DNA of 64,000 nt from an uncultured Dehalococcoidales bacterium. Its GTDB lineage: Bacteria > Chloroflexota > Dehalococcoidia > GIF9 > UBA5629. This document shows positions 6,914 through 36,365 of this stretch, piece by piece. Each line of letters starts with the position of its first letter. Position 1 is the stretch's first letter. The DNA is taken from the NCBI GenBank assembly GCA_964605885.1, contig CAZSED010000002.1, positions 14,502-78,501 on the forward strand, in the 5' to 3' direction. The notes under the pieces are model-generated. The model was not told where the DNA came from. It made no database searches and saw nothing but the letters and a program-made list of their open reading frames with translations. The translations under genes were made by a program, and so were the position numbers.

Positions 6914-8386
6914 TTGATGATGTTCAGACCATCTCATGTTTTCACCATCCTGATTATTGCAGTAGTCATTGCTGCTGTGCTGATATCCTGCGCCGCCCCG
7001 GCCGCCAAGCAGTCGGAGCCGGGCAGCGGCCTGGAAGGGTTCATTTCCTCCCTGCAGAAGGGCGGCTTCACGCTCAAACCTGTACCGTTCATACCCGTTG
7101 ACCTGATCAGGCTGTACGAGTCCGGCAGGCTGGCCAACGCGGCAGGCAATAATGCCGGTGCGCCTTACAGGGCGGTATTCGCCGCCGGGCCAGAGAACCT
7201 TCAAATGTCGGATATAAAACAGCTGTCCAACGCCGACGTATGGGAGAAGATGGAGACGCAACTGTACGGGATACATACATTGATACAGGGCTGGCAGCTT
7301 AACCCGGATGAGGCTCTTGTCATCGTGGGCAGGACGCCCCCGCAATGCGCCTACTTCAGCTACTGCGGCTTCGTCTTCTACAAGTATTATGAAAAGGAGC
7401 AGGGACGCAAATGGGTCTGGGCCAGCTTCAACGATCCGCTGAACAACCTCACTATCAAGACACTGGGCACGCGTGGCGGGAAAAAAGGCAACCCCTTCGA
7501 CCAGGATGTCATCATTGTCATCACTGCCGACCGGGGCACCGACAAGCAGGTGCGTAATGCCGCCGCCGCGGCGGGATACTCCAGGGATATCATCAATACC
7601 TACGTTGTCCCGGGCTCGCTGCTGAAGCTGGGCACCGGGCCCGACTGTGACAGTATTGTCTTCGGCCAGCGCATGGCGCTCTTCGCCGACGAGAACAAAG
7701 GCCAGGAATATGTTAATACGATTTCAGTCGCTATCAAGGTTACACCCACCGCGCAGGGCAAGCCCGACCCGTTCCCCGCGCCCGAGGTGCGCGTGAGGGG
7801 CACGGGCAAAACAGAGGTGGGCCTGCAGCCGGCGCTGGACGAGCTGCGCCGGGCCATACTGGCTAAATACAGCAGCCTGGCAGCCAGCGAGCTGGAGACG
7901 CACCAGTGGCTGTCCGAGTCTTATGACGCCATCCAGAGGGGCGAATACGTCGCAGGAGAAAGCCGCGACACCGTCTACCTGCGTTCCAGCACTTTCACGC
8001 TGGGTGATGCTGCAGATGAGTTCGCCGTCGCCTACGGCGTCAACCATGCCGCCAGCGGCAAGGCCACCTACTCCAACTGCTCCTTCTACGGCGAGGCAGG
8101 ATGGAACGGCGTGGCCGGCATTTATAGCCCCGATTTAACAGGCAGCGCCGATGCCTTTCTGCCGGGCAACCCACTGGCCAAATATCTATACGTCTGCAAG
8201 TTTGCCCGCACCTGCAACGGCGAAAAGACCTGCGTGGCGGTGGCGACCGGCCCTGTGGCCCACGGCGTTAAGCTGGACGAGCCGGCCTTCATCGGCTTCC
8301 GCGCCTACATGGAACCGTCCACGCGGGTCGGGCCGGCATATTCTGAGCTTCTTTACGACCGCGTAATCAAGTTTAGCCCGCGCTGA
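6914..8386 (+). CDS. Hypothetical secreted lipoprotein (490 aa)
   Basis: GGAGG RBS; signal peptide with lipobox LISCAA; no recognised domain. Confidence 0.55.
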   Translation: MMMFRPSHVFTILIIAVVIAAVLISCAAPAAKQSEPGSGLEGFISSLQKGGFTLKPVPFIPVDLIRLYESGRLANAAGNNAGAPYRAVFAAGPENLQMSDIKQLSNADVWEKMETQLYGIHTLIQGWQLNPDEALVIVGRTPPQCAYFSYCGFVFYKYYEKEQGRKWVWASFNDPLNNLTIKTLGTRGGKKGNPFDQDVIIVITADRGTDKQVRNAAAAAGYSRDIINTYVVPGSLLKLGTGPDCDSIVFGQRMALFADENKGQEYVNTISVAIKVTPTAQGKPDPFPAPEVRVRGTGKTEVGLQPALDELRRAILAKYSSLAASELETHQWLSESYDAIQRGEYVAGESRDTVYLRSSTFTLGDAADEFAVAYGVNHAASGKATYSNCSFYGEAGWNGVAGIYSPDLTGSADAFLPGNPLAKYLYVCKFARTCNGEKTCVAVATGPVAHGVKLDEPAFIGFRAYMEPSTRVGPAYSELLYDRVIKFSPR

Positions 8387-8415
8387 AACTACATTGTCTA
8401 AACGCAAAATAAATA

Positions 8416-8437
8416 CCGGCCCCTTCGAAGGGGCCGG
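8416..8437. terminator. GC-rich hairpin between convergent genes (bidirectional terminator)
   Basis: CCGGCCCCttcgaaGGGGCCGG is a perfect inverted repeat between the 3' ends of the 6914..8386(+) and 8471..8833(-) genes. Confidence 0.5.
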
Positions 8438-8470
8438 TACCTTTAAACTCAATCTTGCCCTCGGGCAGCC

Positions 8471-8833
8471 TTACATCTTTACGCGTTCGCCGAAGCCTAC
8501 GCTCAGCAGCACCTTGATGGCTGCAATGAGCGCCACGGGCGACATCAGGGCGGCGAAGTACACCAGTATGCTGGCGGCTATCTTGCCGATGCCCAGGAAG
8601 GTGATGGGTGCAAAGGCCGCTGTCATGGCCAGCAGCGCGATGGTGGCCAGCAGCAGCGTGTTGATCTGGGCGCTGTCCTTGACCATTATCACGTGTAGGA
8701 CGCCGATGATCACGCCGATGATCACCAGGGTGATGCCCACCGCGGCGTTCTCAGGGAGCAGCAGGCCTCCCACCACGGCCAGAAGCAGCCCGATGCAGAA
8801 CAGGATGAAACTGATGAGTCCCCATGCTTTCAT
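8471..8833 (-). CDS. Small integral membrane protein (about 4 TM)
   Basis: Highly hydrophobic 120-aa product. Confidence 0.5.
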   Translation of the reverse strand: MKAWGLISFILFCIGLLLAVVGGLLLPENAAVGITLVIIGVIIGVLHVIMVKDSAQINTLLLATIALLAMTAAFAPITFLGIGKIAASILVYFAALMSPVALIAAIKVLLSVGFGERVKM

Positions 8834-20766: not shown

Positions 20767-21311
20767 TCAGCCCTCGGGCACGGCGGGGCCGGCCCGCCGC
20801 TTAATCCGCATGCCGAACAGGAAGCGCGTCACGTTCGTCTGCTTAACCACGAACTGGTACAGTAGCAATATTATTGCGAACGATATAGCTATTATCAGAA
20901 AATACGTGGCAGGCGCCGGGATGTCCCACTGGATGACATAGAATCCGACGCCGACGATGACCGTTTGATGCATGACATAGAAAGGCAGCACCGCTCGTTG
21001 GCATAAGACAGGAAACGGTTGGAAAAAGAAAGAAATTTCCTGGCCATGCCCAGAAAGGCCACCATCCAGAAACAGCACAGCTAGACAGCGAAAAACTCCA
21101 TGTCGCCCACCAGGTTTTTCTCCGCACCGAGCATCGGCATCTGCCACAGGTCGGCAAAGTCATTAAACAGCTGGACCGTGAAGTAATGCTGGCTGTTTTT
21201 CAGGTGCCAGGGCCAGTAGACGAAGAACATTCCGCAGTGGAAGACGAATACCACCAGCATCGTGACAACCCGCACCCAGTCCAGGTCAAAGCGTCTTCCG
21301 TGCCTGTCCAC
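20767..21311 (-). pseudogene. Frameshifted and truncated acyltransferase-3/DUF1624-family membrane acyltransferase remnant
   Basis: One frame gives RFDLDWVRVVTMLVVFVFH (acyltransferase N-terminal motif), a second gives LPFYVMHQTVIVGVGFYV, and a third overlaps both. The whole is only about 180 codons, whereas typical family members are about 350. Confidence 0.45.
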
Positions 21312-21401
21312 AGCCGGGTATTATACATAAAAAGCGCTGCGGTATTGAAGGGCCGTTGTATAATTATCTGGCTTAAGTGTAATAAAAAGGTGGAGGCTGC
21401 T

Positions 21402-22826
21402 ATGAAAAACATTATTCGGCACGGGCATCTGGCTCTCCTTGTCTTGCTCATCCTGGCCTGTTCAATTCCTGCCTGCGCGGGCGCAGCACCGCAAACCATC
21501 AGCCTGCAGGAGGCGCAGCAGATCGCCTTTGATGCCGCGGTCTACGGCTTCCCGCTGGTCGTGATGGACCTCACCCGGCAGGTCATGACGGCGGTCCCCG
21601 CGCCCAGTCAGCTCGGATCACCGGCCAACCAGTTCGGCAACAAGAGGGTGTTCCCGGATGCAACCTTCACCAACGTGGTGAACCCCAATGCCGATACGCT
21701 ATATTCGTCGGCCTGGATCGACACCGCTAAAGAGCCCATCATCCTCTCGGTGCCGGATACCCACGGCCGCTACTACCTGATGCCCATGTTCAACTGCTGG
21801 ACGGACTGCTTTGCCTCGCCCGGCTCGCGCACCACCGGCACCGGCGCCGGCAGCTTTGCCATCACCGGCCCGGGCTGGAGCGGCAAGTTGCCTGACGGCC
21901 TGGCCGAGATGAAGTCTTCCACCCGCTGGGTCTGGATTGTCGGCCGCATCGCCTGTACGGGGCAGGCCGACTACGATAACGTCTGGAAGCTTCAGGACCA
22001 GCTCAAGCTGACGCCGCTCTCCGCCTGGGGCACCAGCTACGTGCCGCCGGCCAGCGTGCCGGTCGATCCCAACGTCAACGCTAAGGTGGCTCCGCTCGCC
22101 CAGTTGCTGGCCATGGATGCAGCCGGCTTTTTCAACAATGCCTGCTCGTTGATGGTTGAAAACCCTCCCTATGCAGCGGATGCCCCCATACTGGCCCTCA
22201 TGGCGAAGATAGGCATCAAGCCCGGGGCCGACTACAAGTCGTACTTTGCCGGGCTGGATGATGGCCTTAAGTCGGCCATTCAGGCCGGCTATCAGTCCGC
22301 CCTGGCCCAGATTCCTGCGTCGGATATGGGGACTCCCAAGAACGGGTGGCAGCTCACTTACGCCACCGGCAACTACGGCACGAACTATGCGGTGAGGGCT
22401 GCCATAGCCTACCGTGGATTGGGCGCCAATCTTGTTGACGATGCTTTCTATGCCTCAGCTTTAACCACCGGCGACGGCGCAAAGTTGTCCAGCGACAACA
22501 AGTATGTGCTCCATTTCGGCAAGGATGAGGTACCGCCAGTCAGCGGCTTCTGGTCGCTCTCCATGTACAACGACAAGATTATGTTCGTGGCCAATCCCAT
22601 CAACAGGTACAGCCTGGGCTCGTTGAGCGACCCGCCGCTGGTCAAGAACCCCGACGGTTCGCTTGACATCTACATACAGCGCGATGCTCCTGATTCTGCC
22701 GTGACGCCCAACTGGCTGCCCGCCCCGGCCAGCGGCAACTTCCAGATGACGCTGCGCCTGTACTGGCCGCAGCAGCCGGTGCTGGACAAGAAGTGGATAC
22801 CGCCGGCGGTGCAGCTGGTTAAATAG
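21402..22826 (+). CDS. Secreted DUF1254-DUF1214 fusion protein
   Basis: PNADTLYSSAWIDT...EPIILSVPDTHGRYYLMPMF (DUF1254) and FWSLSMYN...NPINRYSLGS...NWLP (DUF1214); signal peptide; RBS AAGGTGGAGG. Confidence 0.7.
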   Translation: MKNIIRHGHLALLVLLILACSIPACAGAAPQTISLQEAQQIAFDAAVYGFPLVVMDLTRQVMTAVPAPSQLGSPANQFGNKRVFPDATFTNVVNPNADTLYSSAWIDTAKEPIILSVPDTHGRYYLMPMFNCWTDCFASPGSRTTGTGAGSFAITGPGWSGKLPDGLAEMKSSTRWVWIVGRIACTGQADYDNVWKLQDQLKLTPLSAWGTSYVPPASVPVDPNVNAKVAPLAQLLAMDAAGFFNNACSLMVENPPYAADAPILALMAKIGIKPGADYKSYFAGLDDGLKSAIQAGYQSALAQIPASDMGTPKNGWQLTYATGNYGTNYAVRAAIAYRGLGANLVDDAFYASALTTGDGAKLSSDNKYVLHFGKDEVPPVSGFWSLSMYNDKIMFVANPINRYSLGSLSDPPLVKNPDGSLDIYIQRDAPDSAVTPNWLPAPASGNFQMTLRLYWPQQPVLDKKWIPPAVQLVK

Positions 22827-24105: not shown

Positions 24106-24330
24106 TTACTCTGAACCCTTTTTATATTTTTGCTGCAGTTCCCTTAATTGCTGCTGCTTTTTTAGCTCTTCCTCAGTCAGGGTTTTGTAGGAAACAAGCT
24201 CGTCGTTCTTGATTTCAACAGTAAAAAGCGCACGGCATTTCCAGCAGCGATAGGGCCCGATATAATCCAGTTCAACCAGGGATATGGTGCCTTCGGTCTG
24301 GCAGGCCGGACATTTAATCTTTTTCAGCAT
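24106..24330 (-). CDS. Small zinc-ribbon protein with a coiled-coil tail
   Basis: CPACQ...CWKCRALF, then a K/Q/E-rich tail. Confidence 0.4.
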   Translation of the reverse strand: MLKKIKCPACQTEGTISLVELDYIGPYRCWKCRALFTVEIKNDELVSYKTLTEEELKKQQQLRELQQKYKKGSE

Positions 24331-24540
24331 ATTTGTTCATCCTTCCAATTCAGCATTATAAAGTAGTATTAAATGCTTCGCAAAATTTCTTATTCAACCA
24401 ACGGGTCATAAATATTGTACCGGATGGCTCTCCTTCGCCGCATGGTTGATTAATTATAATATGTAAAGATCGCGCAACGTTTAACTTACTTGACCGAACG
24501 TTCGCGGTATGCTACACCTAAATTAGGGCGTTTAAGGGAG

Positions 24541-25140
24541 GTGATTAATATAAAAACTATTTATAAGGTGCTCATAGCGGCGGTGATAGCCGTGGTGGCT
24601 GGTGGCGCCATCGGCTTTTTCACCGTCAACCCCATTGCTAAGGCTGTAACCAGTGCGAGCAACGCTACAAGCGGACCATGGTCTGTCAACTATGCATATG
24701 GCAGCGCCGCGGCAAACCCGTATGTCAAGGCATGGGTCGCCGAGACAGGGCTTTTCGCGGTGACAATTAGCACATACTTTGACGCCTACACCGATGACAA
24801 CGGACAACCGATCACAGGCGGCTGCGACTATGTGATACAGGGCCCGGCGCCTACGGCACGATACTGGAATATCACTGTCTACAACCAGGATGGTTTCCTG
24901 ATACAAAACGACCAGAACCGCTGGTCATTCAGCTCCACTGACATCAAGTTCGAGCCTGACGGCAGTTTCAAAATATATCTATCGAGAACGGCGAAGCAGG
25001 GAAACTGGCTGCCGACCGGCAACGCTAAGACGCTGAACGTGTACTTTCGCCTGCATAACGCCGGACCTGATTACCTGAGCGCCAATACATTAAAGTCGGC
25101 GGGACTGCCGCATATTACCAAGGAGGGCTGCCAGCAATGA
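24541..25140 (+). CDS. Membrane-anchored stand-alone DUF1214 domain protein
   Basis: WSFSSTDIKFEPDGSFKIYL...GNWLPTGN DUF1214 signature and an N-terminal TM anchor. The start is ambiguous: an in-frame GTG at 24541 overlaps the GGGAGGTGA RBS, and the track begins at TTG 24490. Confidence 0.5.
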   Translation: MINIKTIYKVLIAAVIAVVAGGAIGFFTVNPIAKAVTSASNATSGPWSVNYAYGSAAANPYVKAWVAETGLFAVTISTYFDAYTDDNGQPITGGCDYVIQGPAPTARYWNITVYNQDGFLIQNDQNRWSFSSTDIKFEPDGSFKIYLSRTAKQGNWLPTGNAKTLNVYFRLHNAGPDYLSANTLKSAGLPHITKEGCQQ

Positions 25141-25670
25141 AAAAGTGGATACCATGGATAGGATGGACGCTCCTGGCCGTCATCGTGGTGGCCGTCATCG
25201 TGAACCTGGTCGTGGCGCTCAGCATTCCAACGGTCATTATGGGAGTAACACTTAACCAGAAGTTCAACTACCCCAGCAACCAGTGGATTTTCGAGCCGCC
25301 GATCTCAGATAATAGCACCGACGTAATCAGGCCGGCTCCTGATGATCTTTACTCAATCCTGGTTTACGACGTTAGCCAGCACCCGCTGCGCGTGACCGCC
25401 GTAACGTCTCCAAACTGGGCTATCTCCGGTATTGCCATCAATACAGATAATTTCTTTAACATCACCGATCTGCAGGCAAAGACGAACCCGGTGGAGATTG
25501 TCCTGATATCAAAGGGACAGACATACAAGGACACAACAGGGAAGGCAGTAGTCATCGAGTCACCTAGCGACAAGGGCATACTTATGATCAGCGCTGTCAC
25601 CCCTAATCAGGCAGCTTTGCCAGGCCTTGTGGAGCAGCAAAAAAAATCCACCGCAGAGTTGGTAAAGTAA
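25137..25670 (+). CDS. Membrane-anchored stand-alone DUF1254 domain protein
   Basis: IRPAPDDLYSILVYDVSQHPLRVTAV DUF1254 signature; its start overlaps the stop of the DUF1214 gene. Confidence 0.55.
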   Translation: MKKWIPWIGWTLLAVIVVAVIVNLVVALSIPTVIMGVTLNQKFNYPSNQWIFEPPISDNSTDVIRPAPDDLYSILVYDVSQHPLRVTAVTSPNWAISGIAINTDNFFNITDLQAKTNPVEIVLISKGQTYKDTTGKAVVIESPSDKGILMISAVTPNQAALPGLVEQQKKSTAELVK

Positions 25671-25777
25671 TCACCTGAGGGCCGAAGTCCGTCTTCACTG
25701 TGTTCCGGTTGGTTGTTACAGGTGGACTTCGGCTCTGCGCAAGGTTGTCATTCAAACACCTGTCGGGAAGACTAAAC

Positions 25778-26137
25778 ATGAGGACACACTACAAGGCTAT
25801 CGATGAATACATAAAGAGTTTTCCTGCCGATGTCCAGGTAATCCTCCAAACAATACGACGGATTGTACGGGAAGCTGCACCTGAAGCTGTGGAAGCAATT
25901 AGCTATGGAATCCCTACATTCAAACTTGGCGGTAATCTGGTACATTTTTCTGCGTACAAGCATCATATTGGCTTTTATCCCACACCATCAGGAATTGAGC
26001 AGTTTGAAGCAGAACTGGCGACATACAAATCATCCAAAGGCGCCGTACAATTCCCGTTGGACAGGCCGGTTCCCTACGACCTGGTGAAAAGAATAGTTAT
26101 TTTCCAGGTAAAGGAGAAAACGGGGGAAAAGCACTAG
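25778..26137 (+). CDS. DUF1801 (YdhG-like) domain protein
   Basis: MRTHYKAIDEYIKSFPADVQVIL...YGIPTFK pattern. Confidence 0.5.
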   Translation: MRTHYKAIDEYIKSFPADVQVILQTIRRIVREAAPEAVEAISYGIPTFKLGGNLVHFSAYKHHIGFYPTPSGIEQFEAELATYKSSKGAVQFPLDRPVPYDLVKRIVIFQVKEKTGEKH

Positions 26138-26284
26138 CAAGCGTGTTTGAGACATCCTGTATACGCAATCCCTGCGCAATAATGACCCCTTCGGGTCACT
26201 GATGTTATCCGTTACGGTTCTATCGCCATAGTAAAAGCCTGCCTATAATGTCCCCGTGTCAAATAATCTCTCACAGGTGATGGC

Positions 26285-26812
26285 ATGAATGCACTCAGGA
26301 ACCTGCACCGCGGACAGAAAGGCATGACCGGCCTTGAAACGGCAATTATCCTCATTTCATTCGTCACCGTTGCGGCCGTATTCGGCTACGCCGTATTAAG
26401 CGCAGGCCTCTTCTCGGCCGAAAGGGGCAAGGAAACCGTCTATAACGCCCTGGATGAGGCAAACAACACCTGCACAGTTTCGGGCTCAGTAGTAGCCACG
26501 AGCGATGACAACATTAACGTAAGAACCATAAGATTCGCGCTCAGGCCCGTGCCGGCCACCTGGGGCGGCGTCACTTCTGCCGTCCTCAGCCTTACGACCA
26601 GGACAGACTATATCAACAATGTGCGGATTTCAGGTTTCCAAGATGATGTAATCATCATTGACTTGACCGACCTTGGCCCCGGCGGTCCGCTCAGCGAGAA
26701 CCTGACTGCAAATGACACCTTCACCCTGCAGGTCAAGCCGTCCAAAGGGGCAAGCATCACCATCAGCAGGCAACTGCCCCCAGCCTTTTACCCGGTGATG
26801 GACCTGCGCTAA
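26285..26812 (+). CDS. Archaellin-like protein (archaeal flagellin N-terminal domain with class III signal peptide)
   Basis: RGQKG|MTGLETAIILISFVTVAAVFGYAVLSAGLF...ERGKET closely parallels archaellin N-termini such as ...KG|LAGLDTAIILIAFIIVASVLAYVAINMGLF...KAKTT; 175 aa; AGGTGA RBS. Confidence 0.6.
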   Translation: MNALRNLHRGQKGMTGLETAIILISFVTVAAVFGYAVLSAGLFSAERGKETVYNALDEANNTCTVSGSVVATSDDNINVRTIRFALRPVPATWGGVTSAVLSLTTRTDYINNVRISGFQDDVIIIDLTDLGPGGPLSENLTANDTFTLQVKPSKGASITISRQLPPAFYPVMDLR

Positions 26813-26916
26813 GGCCCCCGGGAACATTCCCAGTTAACCTGAGAAATGAAGCGCCCTGTGCGAATTGCTACATCCCCAATTGAGTGGGGACTCGTAATGT
26901 TATTTGGAGAGAGGAT

Positions 26917-26953
26917 TGGTGGCAGCGACTGGGATTGAACCAGTGACCAAGGG
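26917..26953 (-). repeat. Direct repeat of the 3' 37 nt of tRNA-Met (att-like partial tRNA copy)
   Basis: TGGTGGCAGCGACTGGGATTGAACCAGTGACCAAGGG is identical to 28181..28217, which is the tRNA 3' half including CCA. Confidence 0.85.
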
Positions 26954-27045
26954 GCGTTACATCCTGTATATGGGGTATTCCATTACGATGTTTACTGATG
27001 TATAATGCTTTTGTTTGCGTTTAAATGGCTTCCTGCCTAAATTGA

Positions 27046-28152
27046 TTGAGGGGGTTGAGTTGGTTTATGAAGAAGGCGCCCAGCAAGCGAAAAAAGACTC
27101 TCATACGACAAAAATATCAAGACTCCTTTGCTGATACACTGAAGAAAATTCCCTTAAACAAATTTACCGTTGAGGCCGCACTCGAAGTTATTCCTGCCAG
27201 TATCAGTAATGCTGTTTCACTTGTAGCTGATGAAACTATCGGTGTTGCCACTGGTGTAATTGCATACCATACCCTTGACTGGATGATAAGTACGTTTACC
27301 CATGTTTATGAAACGGGTGAAGCGCGCCTGTCTACCATATTTGGTGGAACTATACCAGACGCCACATATAATAGTGTTTCCGAATTTTGGGCTAAAGTTG
27401 AACAGCATGGTTTGTCTCACGGTGCACTCATAGAGATTACCGGACTGCTGTCACCATATGGACCGTTGACACCATCACATCCCATGTCTAGGCCAGGTTA
27501 CTCAATTGGTGGCTGGAAAAAAATGGGTGATTTAAAAGCAGATAGCACGGAAGAATACGATAATATGGACGCATTAATATATGGTGATCGTGTTATCCGC
27601 CTTTCTAAACCAAGATATAATACATACTATGCAGGGTTGTATGATGTCTATTACGGCTTGGCAAATGTTGCTATTCCACTTTATTTAGATACCCGGCATA
27701 CGCGTCACTTTTACCAATGGGGGCTGCCTGAACTATGGAAATTGCCTTTAGTTGGCGGAAAAATCGTTACATTAAAAGGTCGTTTACGGAAAATCTCGAA
27801 CTACTATTCCCAATTAAAAAAAGAAGTGCCGTCCAAATATCGAATGTTGCCTTCATATGGTTTGGAGGTTTTTGAGATAACTTATATGCATGAATCAGAC
27901 GGTATTACTCATATATCTGCCTCTATTGGCTGGGATGAAGAAAATCAGGAAAGAATGATGACCAATTATTTTAATATACAAGACAGACAAGAATTTTCTG
28001 TGTCCGAGCACCTGCTAGAAAAAACCAGAAAACAGAAAACCAATTTGCTGCTCTTCAATTATGATGATGTATCCTGTTTGAGTAAAGAGTGGAAACACAA
28101 ACTACCTAAATATAATGAACTACTTCAACCATGGTTAAGCGGTACAAAATAA
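27046..28152 (+). CDS. AT-rich orphan protein of unknown function (368 aa), cargo of the tRNA-flanked mini-island
   Basis: Hand-counted 60-bp samples are about 40% GC, against about 65% in neighbouring genes; no recognisable domain; lies exactly between the tRNA and its partial direct repeat. Confidence 0.55.
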   Translation: MRGLSWFMKKAPSKRKKTLIRQKYQDSFADTLKKIPLNKFTVEAALEVIPASISNAVSLVADETIGVATGVIAYHTLDWMISTFTHVYETGEARLSTIFGGTIPDATYNSVSEFWAKVEQHGLSHGALIEITGLLSPYGPLTPSHPMSRPGYSIGGWKKMGDLKADSTEEYDNMDALIYGDRVIRLSKPRYNTYYAGLYDVYYGLANVAIPLYLDTRHTRHFYQWGLPELWKLPLVGGKIVTLKGRLRKISNYYSQLKKEVPSKYRMLPSYGLEVFEITYMHESDGITHISASIGWDEENQERMMTNYFNIQDRQEFSVSEHLLEKTRKQKTNLLLFNYDDVSCLSKEWKHKLPKYNELLQPWLSGTK

Positions 28153-28180
28153 ATCTTTTGTTCTGGCACACTTAAAAATA

Positions 28181-28255
28181 TGGTGGCAGCGACTGGGATT
28201 GAACCAGTGACCAAGGGCTTATGAGTCCCCTGCTCTACCGCTGAGCTACGCTGCC
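28181..28255 (-). tRNA. tRNA-Met, anticodon CAT (a lysidine Ile2-type cannot be excluded), with CCA encoded
   Basis: The reverse complement folds into a canonical cloverleaf: GGCAGCG-TA-GCTC-AGCGGTA-GAGC-A-GGGGA-CTCATAA-GCCCT-TGGTC-ACTGG-TTCAATC-CCAGT-CGCTGCC-A-CCA. Confidence 0.85.
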
Positions 28256-28308
28256 ACAACAGCCTAAAATTCTAGCCAGTCGGCCTTGCCCTGTCAATGA
28301 CAGGGAGC

Positions 28309-28515
28309 TCATTTTCCCTTGCGCCTGAGCAAAACCAAAATTATGGCAACAAGAAAAGCGATAACAAAGAGATAAACAGAGGCGGCAGAAACCTGCCCCC
28401 AGGTAATCCCAAAGGTCATGTCCGGAAAAAGATATTCAGACGGCTTATGGAGCGCACTGGCAAAAATGGTAATCCAGCTCAGTACCATCAAAATAAAGAG
28501 TATTGCAACAGCCAT
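28309..28515 (-). CDS. Small two-TM membrane protein (68 aa)
   Basis: GGGGAGG RBS 5 nt upstream of the ATG; hydrophobic with a basic C-terminus RRKGK. Confidence 0.45.
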   Translation of the reverse strand: MAVAILFILMVLSWITIFASALHKPSEYLFPDMTFGITWGQVSAASVYLFVIAFLVAIILVLLRRKGK

Positions 28516-28645
28516 TACAGCCTCCCCAATCGATGCTATAAGGGATTATAGCACTGCCACGCTACCGCCCTCACCCTGCCCTCTCCCTAAAGGGCGAGGG
28601 TATTTATTTTTATAAGAGGGGCTGGCGCCCCTCTTAAACGCCTGT

Positions 28646-28694
28646 CATTTTCCTTCGCTCTGGAGATTGCCACGCCCCGTTAAAATCGGGGCTC
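28646..28694 (-). repeat. Nested-hairpin dispersed repeat (GTCATTGCGAG-CCCCGATTTTAACGGGGC-GTGGCAATCTCC) flanked by two copies of the palindrome TAAGAGGrGCTGrCGCCCCTCTTAAAC
   Basis: Read directly from sequence. The palindromes lie at about 28606-28634 and 28716-28744. Confidence 0.7.
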
Positions 28695-28903
28695 GCAATG
28701 ACATGTAAATATAAGAGGAGCTGACGCCCCTCTTAAACACTCCCAAGCCGTTCTGATTTATCTTCTATGTCCAAATCGCACCACGCGAGAACGCCACGCT
28801 TGGATGAGGCTGCTTTGACATGCTATTATTACTGGAGTAAAATATCCGGCAGTTTAATACTTATGCTCATGTGCGCATAAGTAGATAAGGATAGGTCAAG
28901 ACC

Positions 28904-29245
28904 ATGCGTGAGCTCCTCAAAGTCTTCAAAGCCCTGGCGGACGAAACCAGGCTGCGCATTCTCCACCTGCTGCTCGAAAGGGAAGCCTGCGTGCTGGAGA
29001 TCAAGCAGGCCATGCGCATCTCTCAGACCCGCGCCTCCCGCAACCTGGGTATACTGCACGACGCCGGGCTGCTCAAGGCCCGCCGCGAAGGCCCACTGGT
29101 ATTCTATTCACTGGATATGCGCTCCATCAAAAAGAACTGCGCCGGCCTGGACGAAGTCATCAAAGAAGCATTTGCCGGCGACCAGGCTGCCCAGCTCCAC
29201 CGTGAACGCCTCAAGAGGCCGGTGGCCAGGGCCACGGATAGATAG
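28904..29245 (+). CDS. ArsR/SmtB-family metalloregulatory transcriptional repressor
   Basis: ALADETRLRILHLL...CVLEI...SQTRASRNLGILHDAGLL HTH signature. Confidence 0.8.
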   Translation: MRELLKVFKALADETRLRILHLLLEREACVLEIKQAMRISQTRASRNLGILHDAGLLKARREGPLVFYSLDMRSIKKNCAGLDEVIKEAFAGDQAAQLHRERLKRPVARATDR

Positions 29246-36221: not shown

Positions 36222-36228
36222 AATCTGT

Positions 36229-36365
36229 CATTGCGAGGCCCGATTTCATCGGGCCGTGGCAATCTCCCTGCCGCAAAACAAGAATAAAAGGGGCCGCCCG
36301 ATGGGCGGCCCTTGTTTGTTTTAAATGTCATTGCGAGCCCCCGATGCAATCGGCGCTCATCGCAT
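36229..36365 (+). repeat. Two further copies of the nested-hairpin dispersed repeat (GTCATTGCGAGG-CCCGATTTCATCGGGCC-GTGGCAATCTCC at about 36229, and a 3'-truncated copy at about 36326)
   Basis: Read directly; the cores are shared with 28646..28694 and with the 48-bp tandem unit. Confidence 0.7.

What the first reader, a model, noticed from the sequence alone, without database searches (positions are those of the whole stretch)
26917..28255. Minimal integrase-less island at tRNA-Met carrying one AT-rich orphan gene
An intact tRNA-Met(CAT) on the minus strand at 28181..28255 is followed, about 1.2 kb downstream in tRNA orientation, by a perfect 37-bp direct repeat of its 3' half at 26917..26953. 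That is the attL/attR geometry left by a tyrosine-integrase element. The only content between the repeats is one 368-aa gene (27046..28152). Hand-counted 60-bp samples of it are about 40% GC, against about 65% for flanking genes, and it has no recognisable domain. No integrase, excisionase or other mobility gene is present. Either a larger element decayed down to a single retained cargo gene, or a very small cassette was captured at the tRNA. A single foreign gene kept in isolation is the pattern often seen for defence or abortive-infection singletons.
Basis: partly seen in the sequence, partly recalled or inferred. Interest (0 to 1): 0.7.

Follow-up and report, generated by a model that had tools for sequence, protein, structure and literature searches.

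The report
Integrase-less mini-island at tRNA-Met hotspot
A 1.26-kb piece of foreign DNA carrying one gene of unknown function sits next to a tRNA-Met gene in an uncultured Dehalococcoidia bacterium; it is bracketed by a perfect 37-bp repeat of the tRNA end, a familiar kind of leftover from site-specific integration, and its one unusual feature is the rare, uncharacterised gene, whose relatives often lie beside anti-phage genes.

Summary
tRNA-Met(CAT) lies at 28181..28255 (-). A perfect 37-bp copy of its 3' half lies at 26917..26953 (0 expected by chance). Between them is one intact gene, more likely 361 aa from ATG 27067 than 368 aa. Its GC is 0.40 and GC3 0.35, against GC3 0.76-0.87 in neighbouring core genes. 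The window mean GC is 0.56, not 0.65.

The host is a Dehalococcoidia (Chloroflexota) MAG. Relatives keep the order tRNA-Met, ArsR, hydrogenase, and none carries this gene. In at least nine relatives the same tRNA-Met is followed by two to six copies of the same 3'-half repeat. These bound AT-rich segments of 0.5-7.4 kb. Two segments have an intact tyrosine integrase, at least five have integrase remnants, and some carry defence or toxin-antitoxin cargo.

The feature is therefore a decayed or non-autonomous (CIME-like) unit at a lineage-wide integration hotspot. That is a known kind of element.

The cargo protein belongs to a rare family (about 40 clusters in billions of proteins). It has no Pfam, PADLOC, PHROG, NCBIfam or PDB match, and only a weak OB-fold resemblance. 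Its homologues are stand-alone genes, often next to restriction-modification, HerA/NurA, Mrr, HEPN or Csm6 genes. A defence role is plausible but unproven.

The parts
26917..26953 (.). Distal direct repeat. It is the displaced copy of the last 37 nt of tRNA-Met (CCA end back to the 3' strand of the anticodon stem) and forms the attR-like boundary of the cassette.
   Evidence: It matches 28181..28217 exactly, with 0 expected by chance. The same kind of repeat is found in tandem at the orthologous tRNA-Met of relatives. Unlike most copies in relatives, it lacks the following anticodon-loop bases CTTATGAG.
26954..27066 (+). The cassette's 5' non-coding leader. It contains a TATAAT hexamer at 27001..27006 and an AGGGGG ribosome-binding motif at 27049..27054.
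   Evidence: Read directly from the sequence. The consensus scan called no full sigma-70-type promoter on the plus strand. It has no homology to the conserved distal arms of relatives' cassettes.
27067..28152 (+). Single cargo gene of 361 aa. It belongs to a rare, uncharacterised family with a variable N-terminal helical region (about residues 1-95) and a conserved beta-rich core (about residues 100-330) that contains an OB-like barrel.
28153..28180 (.). 28-bp spacer between the stop codon of the cargo gene and the 3' end of the tRNA. In an intact island this is where the integrase gene and the proximal arm would lie.
   Evidence: Read directly from the sequence. There is no integrase remnant by tblastn. 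In relative L011 the integrase occupies 7568..8512 next to the tRNA end at 8627.
28181..28255 (-). Intact tRNA-Met(CAT) gene with an encoded CCA end. Its 3' half (28181..28217) is the proximal direct repeat and the attL-like boundary.
   Evidence: ARAGORN and Rfam tRNA at 66 bits. Orthologous tRNAs in relatives differ by 2-7 nt, mostly as compensatory T-arm changes.
28269..28297 (-). Promoter-like site for the tRNA gene: TTGACA, 17-nt spacer, TAGAAT (11 of 12 matches). It lies outside the cassette.
   Evidence: Consensus scan. This is a match to a consensus only and is not evidence of function.

Best explanation
The segment 26917..28217 is a non-autonomous, integrase-less unit left by site-specific integration at tRNA-Met. 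It corresponds to what the ICE/IME literature calls a cis-mobilizable element (CIME).

In this Dehalococcoidia lineage, tRNA-Met is a hotspot for islands carrying a small Xer-like tyrosine integrase of about 315 aa. The islands' attP contains a copy of the tRNA's 3' half. Integration rebuilds the tRNA and displaces the old 3' half to the far end of the island. Repeated integration builds tandem arrays, and internal deletions then strip the integrases, leaving short cassettes.

In this genome one such unit survives, with a single foreign gene that is intact and identical in several metagenome samples. No integrase lies within 64 kb, so the unit cannot move by itself. At best it could be excised by an integrase supplied in trans. 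Its distal site lacks the anticodon-loop part seen in relatives and may be crippled.

The cargo is a stand-alone 361-aa cytoplasmic protein from a rare family. The family has a conserved beta-rich, OB-like core, and its N-terminal module varies between members. I infer that it is a single-gene defence or abortive-infection-type factor whose core binds a nucleic acid or another phage-derived cue.

Shown: the repeat, the foreign composition, absence from relatives, the hotspot arrays, and integrases and integrase remnants in relatives.

Inferred: that this particular cassette arrived through such an integrase, that it arose by decay, and the function of the protein.
For: - The 37-bp repeat is perfect and is not a chance match.
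- GC3 is 0.345, against 0.76-0.87 in adjacent core genes.
- 80 related Dehalococcoidia loci were retrieved through the neighbouring hydrogenase gene. Of the 38 scanned for tRNAs, 14 have the orthologous tRNA-Met just upstream of the hydrogenase, with an ArsR homologue in between, and none of the 80 has the gene.
- The same 3'-half repeat occurs 2-6 times downstream of the tRNA in L011, L012, L013, L014, L015, L026, L029, L046 and L055. It bounds segments of 0.5-7.4 kb, mostly at GC 0.36-0.44.
- Intact tyrosine integrases lie at L011 7568..8512 (PF00589, E 2.9e-31) and L012 5900..6850. Integrase remnants occur in L013, L014, L026, L046 and L055.
- L046 3998..4943 is a 946-bp cassette that keeps a conserved distal arm, one ORF and the first 38 integrase codons. 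This shows that mini-cassettes arise by internal deletion.
- L035 has a near-empty site: a homologue of window 24106..24330 lies about 125 bp from the tRNA's 3' end.
- In L029 the distal repeat carries the window-type T-arm while the tRNA itself carries the island-type T-arm. This is what is expected if integration swaps in the element's 3' half.
- Cargo of relatives' islands includes an Mrr-type nuclease (PDC-S02, 7e-18), an FRG-domain protein matching PDC-S15 (1.5e-35), and ORFs that I read by eye as HicAB-like and did not test with a profile search.
- Homologues of the cargo gene are stand-alone genes next to defence genes: type I R-M plus Csm6 (L005), NurA/HerA (L003), an Eco57I-type R-M enzyme (L090), HerA plus a methyltransferase (L098), methyltransferase-Mrr/PLD/Mrr (L107) and HEPN_AbiU2 (L112). 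One lies 370 bp downstream of a tmRNA gene (L097).
- Distant family members carry a trypsin-like or a DUF4145 N-terminal module in place of the helical one.
- The CIME concept and the accretion-then-decay pathway are described in PMC5704250. Tandem ssrA islands, some without integration genes, are described in Dehalococcoides in PMC3146451.
Against: - The window cassette has no integrase remnant and shares no sequence with the conserved distal or proximal arms of relatives' islands. Descent from that particular island family is therefore not shown.
- Its distal repeat ends at 37 bp. Most copies in relatives run 45-46 bp through the anticodon loop, which is where the crossover appears to lie. 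The left junction is therefore not a canonical product of this integrase family, or it has been altered since.
- Only 28 bp separate the stop codon from the tRNA end. A random deletion would have to remove the integrase cleanly without damaging either.
- No empty site or circular junction was seen. All 14 contigs with the identical neighbouring gene either carry the cassette or break at the repeat.
Confidence: 0.7

Rival explanations
1. Trans-mobilised compact cassette, integron-like. The unit never carried an integrase. It is a small circle-forming cassette bounded by tRNA-derived core sites. It was integrated, and could be excised, by a Xer-like integrase supplied by another island at the same hotspot or elsewhere in the genome.
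For: - The hotspot integrases are short (314-316 aa). They have only SAM-like and catalytic domains and no separate arm-binding domain, so core sites alone might suffice. This is an inference.
- About half of the inter-repeat segments in relatives are shorter than 1.7 kb, and several hold one compact gene that ends within 0-35 bp of the next repeat: L014 1218 bp, L046 614 bp, and the window 28 bp.
- In L012 a 1031-bp integrase-less cassette lies between an intact-integrase island and the tRNA.
- The window cassette has no integrase debris at all.
Against: - Where the history of a mini-cassette can be read (L046 3998..4943), it is a deletion derivative that retains integrase codons and conserved arms.
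- No identical mini-cassette was found in two genomes or at two array positions.
- The window's distal site lacks the anticodon-loop segment shared by other copies.
- No circular or empty-site contig was seen.
- Neither the att core nor any homologue is present in IMG/VR contigs.
Confidence: 0.2
2. The 361-aa protein is itself the mobility function. It would be a new kind of recombinase, making this a minimal autonomous element that targets the tRNA.
For: - It is the only gene between the repeats.
- The same family appears as an AT-rich single-gene insert between NurA and HerA in L003 (gene GC 0.35, rest 0.53), and next to a tmRNA gene in L097.
- The predicted core resembles nucleic-acid-binding OB folds.
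- One family member (P0041) is fused to an excisionase-type HTH_17 domain.
Against: - Sixteen distinct loci carrying homologues outside the window species were scanned for tRNAs: L001, L003, L005, L090-L094, L096-L100, L107, L109 and L111-L113, plus duplicate contigs. None has a tRNA gene, and only L097 has a tmRNA gene.
- In the three of these loci that were searched for repeats (L001, L003, L005), no convincing flanking direct repeat was found.
- In most homologue loci the gene has the same GC as its surroundings.
- It shows no similarity to any recombinase, transposase or nuclease profile, and the wider family has no invariant catalytic residues.
- The tyrosine integrases found at the same site in relatives already explain the repeat.
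- P0041 diverges from the family after about residue 210 and looks chimeric.
Confidence: 0.03
3. The repeat is unrelated to insertion: either a chance match, or a tRNA pseudogene fragment left by local duplication, with the gene between the copies being native.
For: None beyond the absence of an integrase in the window.
Against: - Zero matches are expected by chance.
- The gene's GC3 is 0.35 against about 0.8 for native genes.
- The gene is absent from all 80 related loci.
- In relatives the same repeat bounds integrase-bearing islands.
Confidence: 0.02

Closest known systems
CIMEs (cis-mobilizable elements): decayed ICE/IME remnants that keep attL and attR but have lost their integration and transfer genes. 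First described in Streptococcus and reviewed in PMC5704250.
   Same: It is bounded by direct repeats of the 3' end of a tRNA gene, has no integrase or transfer genes, and sits at a site used by integrase-bearing elements in relatives. The tandem-accretion context is seen in related genomes.
   Different: It is far smaller (1.26 kb, one gene) than described CIMEs. Descent from an ICE or IME is not shown, because no conjugation or mobilisation genes appear in any of the relatives' islands examined. The distal site is shorter than the family norm. Mobilisation has not been tested.
Tandem ssrA (tmRNA) genomic islands of Dehalococcoides, including units without integration genes (McMurdie et al. 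2011, PMC3146451).
   Same: Same bacterial class. Both show tandem arrays of low-GC islands downstream of a small RNA gene, each bounded by a direct repeat of its 3' end. In both, some units lack the integration module and were proposed to be cis-mobilizable.
   Different: The target here is tRNA-Met, not ssrA. The repeat is 37-46 bp, not 20 bp. The recombinase in relatives is a roughly 315-aa tyrosine integrase, not the 540-aa serine recombinase DsiB. The cargo is defence-like or unknown genes, not reductive dehalogenases. Units are mostly much smaller.
tRNA-targeting tyrosine-integrase islands and prophages with anticodon-loop sublocation (the classification by Williams, 2002, cited from my own knowledge).
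   Same: In relatives the identity block runs from the anticodon loop to the CCA end, and the integrase gene lies next to the rebuilt tRNA. In L029 the T-arm variants of the two copies fit a crossover on the anticodon side of the T-arm.
   Different: In the window the identity stops at the loop boundary (37 bp) and no integrase is present.
Integron gene cassettes.
   Same: Compact, mostly single-gene, promoter-poor units arranged in arrays and bounded by short recombination sites. A tyrosine recombinase acts at the platform in relatives.
   Different: There is no IntI-type integrase, attI, attC hairpin site or Pc promoter. The sites are tRNA-derived direct repeats. The relatives' arrays contain integrase debris, which shows decay rather than cassette capture. 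The resemblance is one of form only.

Membership tests
tRNA-integrated genomic island made by a tyrosine integrase | An intact tRNA gene with a direct repeat of its 3' part at the far end of the insert. | tested here: met
   Perfect 37-bp repeat with a 1264-bp period.
tRNA-integrated genomic island made by a tyrosine integrase | An integrase gene inside the insert, next to the tRNA. | tested here: not met
   There is no integrase homologue in the cassette or anywhere in the 64-kb window (tblastn best E 2.5). The cassette ORF has no Pfam hit. The feature is met in relatives L011 and L012.
tRNA-integrated genomic island made by a tyrosine integrase | The insert has foreign composition and is absent from related genomes that keep the flanking synteny. 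| tested here: met
   GC3 is 0.345 against 0.76-0.87. The gene is absent from 80 related loci. L035 has a near-empty site.
tRNA-integrated genomic island made by a tyrosine integrase | The identity block covers the crossover region used by the family. In relatives this is the anticodon loop, giving 45-46 bp. | tested here: not met
   The window's distal copy diverges immediately after 37 bp (GCGTTACA instead of CTTATGAG).
CIME (cis-mobilizable element) | Retains attL and attR but lacks integration and transfer genes. | tested here: met
   Two identical 37-bp sites with one non-mobility gene between them. Caveat: the distal site may be incomplete.
CIME (cis-mobilizable element) | Derived by decay of an ICE or IME. 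| tested here: inconclusive
   The window cassette has no integrase debris and no shared arm sequence. Decay is documented for a relative's mini-cassette, L046 3998..4943. No conjugation or mobilisation genes were seen in any island examined.
CIME (cis-mobilizable element) | Can be excised or mobilised by an integrase supplied by an adjacent or incoming element. | not testable with these tools
   This needs read-level junction detection or an experiment. No empty-site or circular contig was found among the 14 contigs examined.
Integron cassette array | An IntI integrase with attI and Pc, and cassettes ending in attC sites. | tested here: not met
   There is no integrase in the window. The boundaries are tRNA-derived direct repeats, and no inverted repeat of at least 14 nt lies at the cassette ends; the only one in 26000..29000 is the hairpin pair at 28613..28735.
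Known anti-phage defence protein families (PADLOC-DB 2.0) | A significant match to a profile of a known or candidate defence protein. | tested here: not met
   The only hit is DrmC at E 0.012, 12.7 bits, over 66 residues, which is noise level.
OB-fold nucleic-acid-binding proteins | A five-stranded beta-barrel superposable on solved OB domains with a convincing score. | tested here: inconclusive

The most novel reading that the evidence does not exclude
The tRNA-Met locus of this Dehalococcoidia lineage might work as an integron-like platform. Compact single-gene cassettes, bounded only by tRNA-derived core sites, would be shuffled in trans by small Xer-like integrases carried on larger islands. 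Under this reading the window's cassette delivers a previously unknown single-gene anti-phage system, with an OB-like sensor core and swappable N-terminal effector modules (helical hairpin, trypsin-like protease or DUF4145).
Probability: 0.15. Interest if true: 0.7.

Novelty: new member of a known kind. Interest (0 to 1): 0.35.

Why it matters
The structure itself is textbook: an integrase-less remnant at a tRNA hotspot. It adds only a small example from a poorly studied, uncultured lineage.

Two points have some value.

- tRNA-Met in these Dehalococcoidia is a dense accretion site. It holds up to six repeat copies and many cassettes of about 1 kb, some carrying defence or toxin-antitoxin genes. 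This extends the ssrA-island picture known from Dehalococcoides and offers a place to look for new accessory functions.
- The cargo gene belongs to a very rare protein family with no annotation. The family recurs as a stand-alone gene beside restriction-modification, HerA/NurA, Mrr and HEPN genes. That makes it a reasonable, cheap candidate for a phage-defence screen.

Tried and rejected
- **Profile and fold searches of the 361-aa protein.** Pfam, PADLOC, PHROGs and NCBIfam gave nothing meaningful. A PDB sequence-profile search gave nothing. Foldseek against PDB and BFVD found nothing below E 0.018. The AFDB50 library was not available. A second profile search with distant members found no annotated relatives.
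- **Integrase in the window.** tblastn with the L011 and L012 integrases found none.
- **Older, degenerate tRNA fragments left of 26917.** blastn-short with word size 7 found none longer than 11 nt.
- **tRNA genes or flanking repeats around homologues elsewhere.** No tRNA genes were found, and only one tmRNA gene (L097). The three loci searched for repeats (L001, L003, L005) gave only short, chance-level direct repeats.
- **Empty site or circular form in the same population.** A lookup of contigs carrying the exact neighbouring flagellin-like protein showed that all 14 either carry the cassette or stop at the repeat. The 1287-bp Logan contig L009 is simply the unitig between the repeats, i.e. 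1227 bp plus 2 x 30 nt for k = 31.
- **Phage origin.** IMG/VR contains no homologue and no copy of either att-core variant.
- **Relatedness of the L014 mini-cassette ORF.** The 361-aa ORF of the L014 mini-cassette is not related to the window ORF (BLASTP E 1.4).
- **Shared arm sequences.** The window cassette shares no arm sequence with relatives' cassettes.
- **Membrane-protein idea for the N-terminus.** The maximum 19-residue Kyte-Doolittle mean is 1.37, below the usual transmembrane threshold.
Full report
**1.

ARAGORN finds one tRNA in the window, tRNA-Met(CAT) at 28181..28255 on the minus strand, and Rfam confirms it at 66 bits. The 37 nt from its CCA end back to the 3' strand of the anticodon stem (28181..28217) recur exactly at 26917..26953 in the same orientation. 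No other copy appears at up to 3 mismatches, and none is expected by chance. The period is 1264 bp.

The 1227 bp between the copies hold one real ORF. The first possible start is TTG 27046 (368 aa). Gene callers on four public contigs and the N-termini of all homologues point instead to ATG 27067 (361 aa), which follows an AGGGGG motif.

The gene is AT-rich, with GC 0.397 and GC3 0.345. Neighbouring genes have GC3 0.68 (flagellin-like), 0.76 (ArsR) and 0.87 (hydrogenase). The window averages 0.56 GC.

**2. Host and locus in relatives**

The neighbouring NiFe-hydrogenase small subunit retrieved 80 loci from species-representative genomes. Nearly all are Dehalococcoidia/Chloroflexota MAGs, at 69-90% identity. 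I scanned 38 of these loci for tRNAs. In 14 of them an orthologous tRNA-Met sits about 1.1-1.7 kb upstream of the hydrogenase, as in the window (about 3.6 kb in L030). An ArsR homologue lies between the tRNA and the hydrogenase in 23 loci.

None of the 80 loci encodes a homologue of the 361-aa protein (tblastn). The gene is therefore an insertion specific to the window's species. There it is found with an identical protein sequence on nine contigs from four metagenome samples. The identical flagellin-like neighbour, on contigs that carry the cassette or break at the repeat, extends the locus to four further samples.

**3. The tRNA-Met is an integration hotspot**

Searching each relative for copies of its own tRNA 3' half revealed tandem direct repeats downstream of the tRNA:

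| Locus | Repeat copies |
|---|---|
| L011 | 3 |
| L012 | 3 |
| L013 | 4 |
| L014 | 2 (spacing 1255 bp) |
| L015 | 3 |
| L026 | 2 |
| L029 | 2 (spacing 1206 bp) |
| L046 | 6 |
| L055 | 2 |

The segments between copies are 0.5-7.4 kb long and mostly AT-rich, at GC 0.36-0.44 against 0.48-0.53 for the whole loci.

Two segments carry an intact tyrosine integrase on the tRNA strand. One is at L011 7568..8512, 115 bp from the tRNA end, with PF00589 at E 2.9e-31 plus SAM-like N-terminal domains. The other is at L012 5900..6850 and is 81% identical to the first. Fragments of the same integrase survive in L013, L014, L026, L046 and L055.

In most copies the identity runs 45-46 bp, through the anticodon loop (CTTATGAG). 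A purine-rich motif precedes the CCA end.

In L029 the distal copy is exactly the window's 37-mer, whereas the L029 tRNA itself has the CTAG-type T-arm common in relatives. Integration by a crossover on the anticodon side of the T-arm predicts this: the element supplies the new 3' half and the original half is displaced.

L035 shows a near-empty site. A homologue of window 24106..24330 lies about 125 bp from the tRNA end.

This is the picture already described for tRNA and tmRNA hotspots in general. In Dehalococcoides it is known for ssrA, where tandem islands bounded by a 20-bp repeat include units without integration genes (PMC3146451).

**4. How the window's unit fits**

It has the geometry of one unit of such an array, but without an integrase. 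There is no integrase homologue in the cassette or anywhere in the 64 kb. [quoted passage not shown]

Decay is demonstrably how at least some mini-cassettes arise in this lineage. L046 3998..4943 (946 bp) keeps three things: a roughly 100-bp distal arm shared with L014 and L055, one 201-aa ORF, and the first 38 integrase codons with the upstream arm.

The window's cassette does not fit perfectly, in four ways.

- It shares no arm sequence with any relative's cassette.
- It has no integrase debris.
- Its distal copy stops at 37 bp, without the anticodon-loop bases.
- Only 28 bp separate the stop codon from the tRNA.

It may therefore descend from a different island type, or have been trimmed at both ends. 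It could also be a compact cassette inserted in trans, a reading I cannot exclude and rate at about 0.2.

No empty-site or circular contig was found in the same population. The short Logan contigs (for example L009, 1287 bp, which is 1227 bp plus 2 x 30 nt) are just unitigs broken at the repeat. IMG/VR holds neither the att core nor any homologue.

**5. The cargo protein**

It matches nothing in Pfam, PADLOC, PHROGs or NCBIfam, and nothing in the PDB by sequence profile. The family is very small. There are 41 clusters at 90% identity among 5.8 billion proteins and 40 representatives among 1.84 billion. Every member that carries a name is called 'hypothetical protein'.

Close members (36-65% identity) share strong motifs: GLLSPYGPLxPAHPMSRPGYxxxGW, TEEYDxxDxxIYGDRVIRL, YYAGLYD, LPSFGLEV, GVTH, YFNVQD and NYDD. 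Across the wider family only W108, G126 and G238 are invariant. That argues for a binding or structural core, not an obvious enzyme.

The AlphaFold model, built from a 35-sequence alignment, has pLDDT 77.7 and pTM 0.75. It shows a lower-confidence N-terminal helical region (residues 1-95) and a confident beta-rich core. There is no clear transmembrane segment.

Distant members replace the N-terminal region with a weak trypsin-like match (P0071) or a weak DUF4145 match (P0074).

Homologues are always stand-alone genes with no conserved partner, and their neighbourhoods are often defence-related:

| Locus | Neighbouring genes |
|---|---|
| L005 | type I R-M and a Csm6-like gene |
| L003 | NurA and HerA (gene GC 0.35, rest 0.53) |
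| L090 | Eco57I-type R-M enzyme |
| L098 | HerA plus a methyltransferase |
| L107 | methyltransferase-Mrr, PLD and Mrr genes |
| L112 | HEPN_AbiU2 |
| L109 | PIF1-WYL helicase |
| L113 | ParB_N/SNF2 |
| L100 | weak GIY-YIG match |
| L097 | 370 bp downstream of a tmRNA gene |

Others (L001, L094, L111) are uninformative. In most loci the gene's GC matches its surroundings.

The islands at the relatives' tRNA-Met also carry defence-type cargo. Examples are an Mrr-like nuclease (PDC-S02, 7e-18), an FRG-domain protein matching PDC-S15 (1.5e-35), and ORFs I read by eye as HicAB-like.

From this I infer, with low confidence (about 0.3), a single-gene defence or abortive-infection role. In this model the conserved OB-like core senses a nucleic acid or another cue, and the variable N-terminus acts as the effector. 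Nothing here tests that.

**6. Rivals**

A chance repeat or a local tRNA-fragment duplication is excluded.

The idea that the protein is itself a recombinase has little support, for four reasons.

- None of the 16 distinct homologue loci scanned has a tRNA gene, and only L097 has a tmRNA gene. The three loci searched for repeats show no convincing flanking direct repeat.
- The protein has no recombinase, transposase or nuclease signature.
- Tyrosine integrases at the same site in relatives already explain the repeat.
- P0041, the single member fused to an HTH_17 domain, diverges after about residue 210 and looks chimeric.

**7. Verdict**

The structure, however, is a known kind: an integrase-less, CIME-like remnant at a tRNA hotspot. 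Here it is documented in an uncultured Dehalococcoidia lineage whose tRNA-Met accumulates many very small cassettes.

What is new is modest. There is an unannotated, rare protein family with defence-island associations, and a compact array architecture that resembles integrons in form. The evidence points to decay, not cassette capture, as the origin of that architecture.

Interest is 0.35.

Noticed in passing
window 28181..28217 versus L010-L015, L029-L031, L046 and L055 tRNAs; L029 7661..7697: The tRNA-Met T-arm exists in two compensatory versions: CTGG-GATTGAA-CCAG in the window, L019, L026 and L035, and CTAG-ATTYGAA-CTAG in most relatives. In L029 the tRNA has the second version, while the displaced distal copy has the first. 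This suggests that the second version is spread by the islands themselves when they replace the tRNA's 3' half.
   Followed up: partly
window 24106..26916, compared with L035 50..309, L011 12..222 and L013 1327..1657: The left flank of the hotspot ends at a different window gene in each relative: after the 74-aa zinc-ribbon ORF in L035, after DUF1254 in L011, after DUF1801 in L013, and after the flagellin-like gene in the window. In each case the flank directly abuts the tRNA or a repeat copy. The window genes 24490..26812 have intermediate GC3 (0.47-0.68). The cause is either nested deletions from the att site or old accreted cassettes whose repeats have vanished. No degenerate repeat was found.
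   Followed up: partly
window 26285..26812 (+): A 175-aa protein with an archaeal-type flagellin/pilin domain (PF01917, E 4.8e-15) lies in a Dehalococcoidia bacterium immediately left of the distal repeat. I read its N-terminus by eye as a class III signal peptide. No homologue was found in the 80 related loci.
   Followed up: no
window 28665..28702 (+) and 36227..36264 (-); also next to the tRNA in L012, L013 and L029-L031: A dispersed REP-like hairpin element, GATTGCCACG, then a GC hairpin, then CTCGCAATGAC, occurs twice in the window and repeatedly near the tRNA-Met of relatives. A second hairpin, TAAGAGGGGCTGGCGCCCCTCTTA, is duplicated at 28613..28636 and 28712..28735.
   Followed up: partly
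L014 2834..4051: A second single-gene mini-cassette lies at the orthologous tRNA-Met. It is 1218 bp at GC 0.357, with one 361-aa ORF that is unrelated to the window ORF (BLASTP E 1.4). That ORF reads toward the tRNA and ends at the repeat. It has no Pfam or PADLOC hit. Its N-terminus contains FLDIIGFKKL, which recalls nucleotidyl-cyclase motifs; this is from memory and was not tested.
   Followed up: partly
window 21186..22826, versus 24490..25140 and 25137..25670: A fused DUF1254-DUF1214 protein (GC 0.61) has 78-80% nucleotide-identity counterparts near the hotspot in L014, L015, L026 and L029; in L015 it lies between two tRNA-repeat copies. A split DUF1214 plus DUF1254 gene pair lies 2 kb further right in the window.
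   Followed up: no
L003 5881..7351: A homologue of the cargo gene (GC 0.35, against 0.53 for the rest of the contig) sits as a single-gene AT-rich insert between NurA and a small ORF plus HerA. It is followed by a tiny lysine-rich ORF (MGSKGRKNVKKPKAAAKKAAPATKKK). No convincing flanking repeats were found.
   Followed up: partly
P0041 (399 aa; ENA contig of 2411 bp): One family member keeps only the first roughly 210 residues of the family. It continues into unrelated sequence that ends in an HTH_17 (excisionase/MerR-type) domain. It is probably a chimera or a recombined gene.
   Followed up: no
window 28181..28255: With a standard 7-nt anticodon loop, the anticodon stem has an A31-G39 mismatch and a G27-T43 pair. 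This is conserved in all relatives. G1-C72 argues against an initiator tRNA. Whether this CAT tRNA is an elongator tRNA-Met or a tRNA-Ile2 (lysidine) was not resolved.
   Followed up: no
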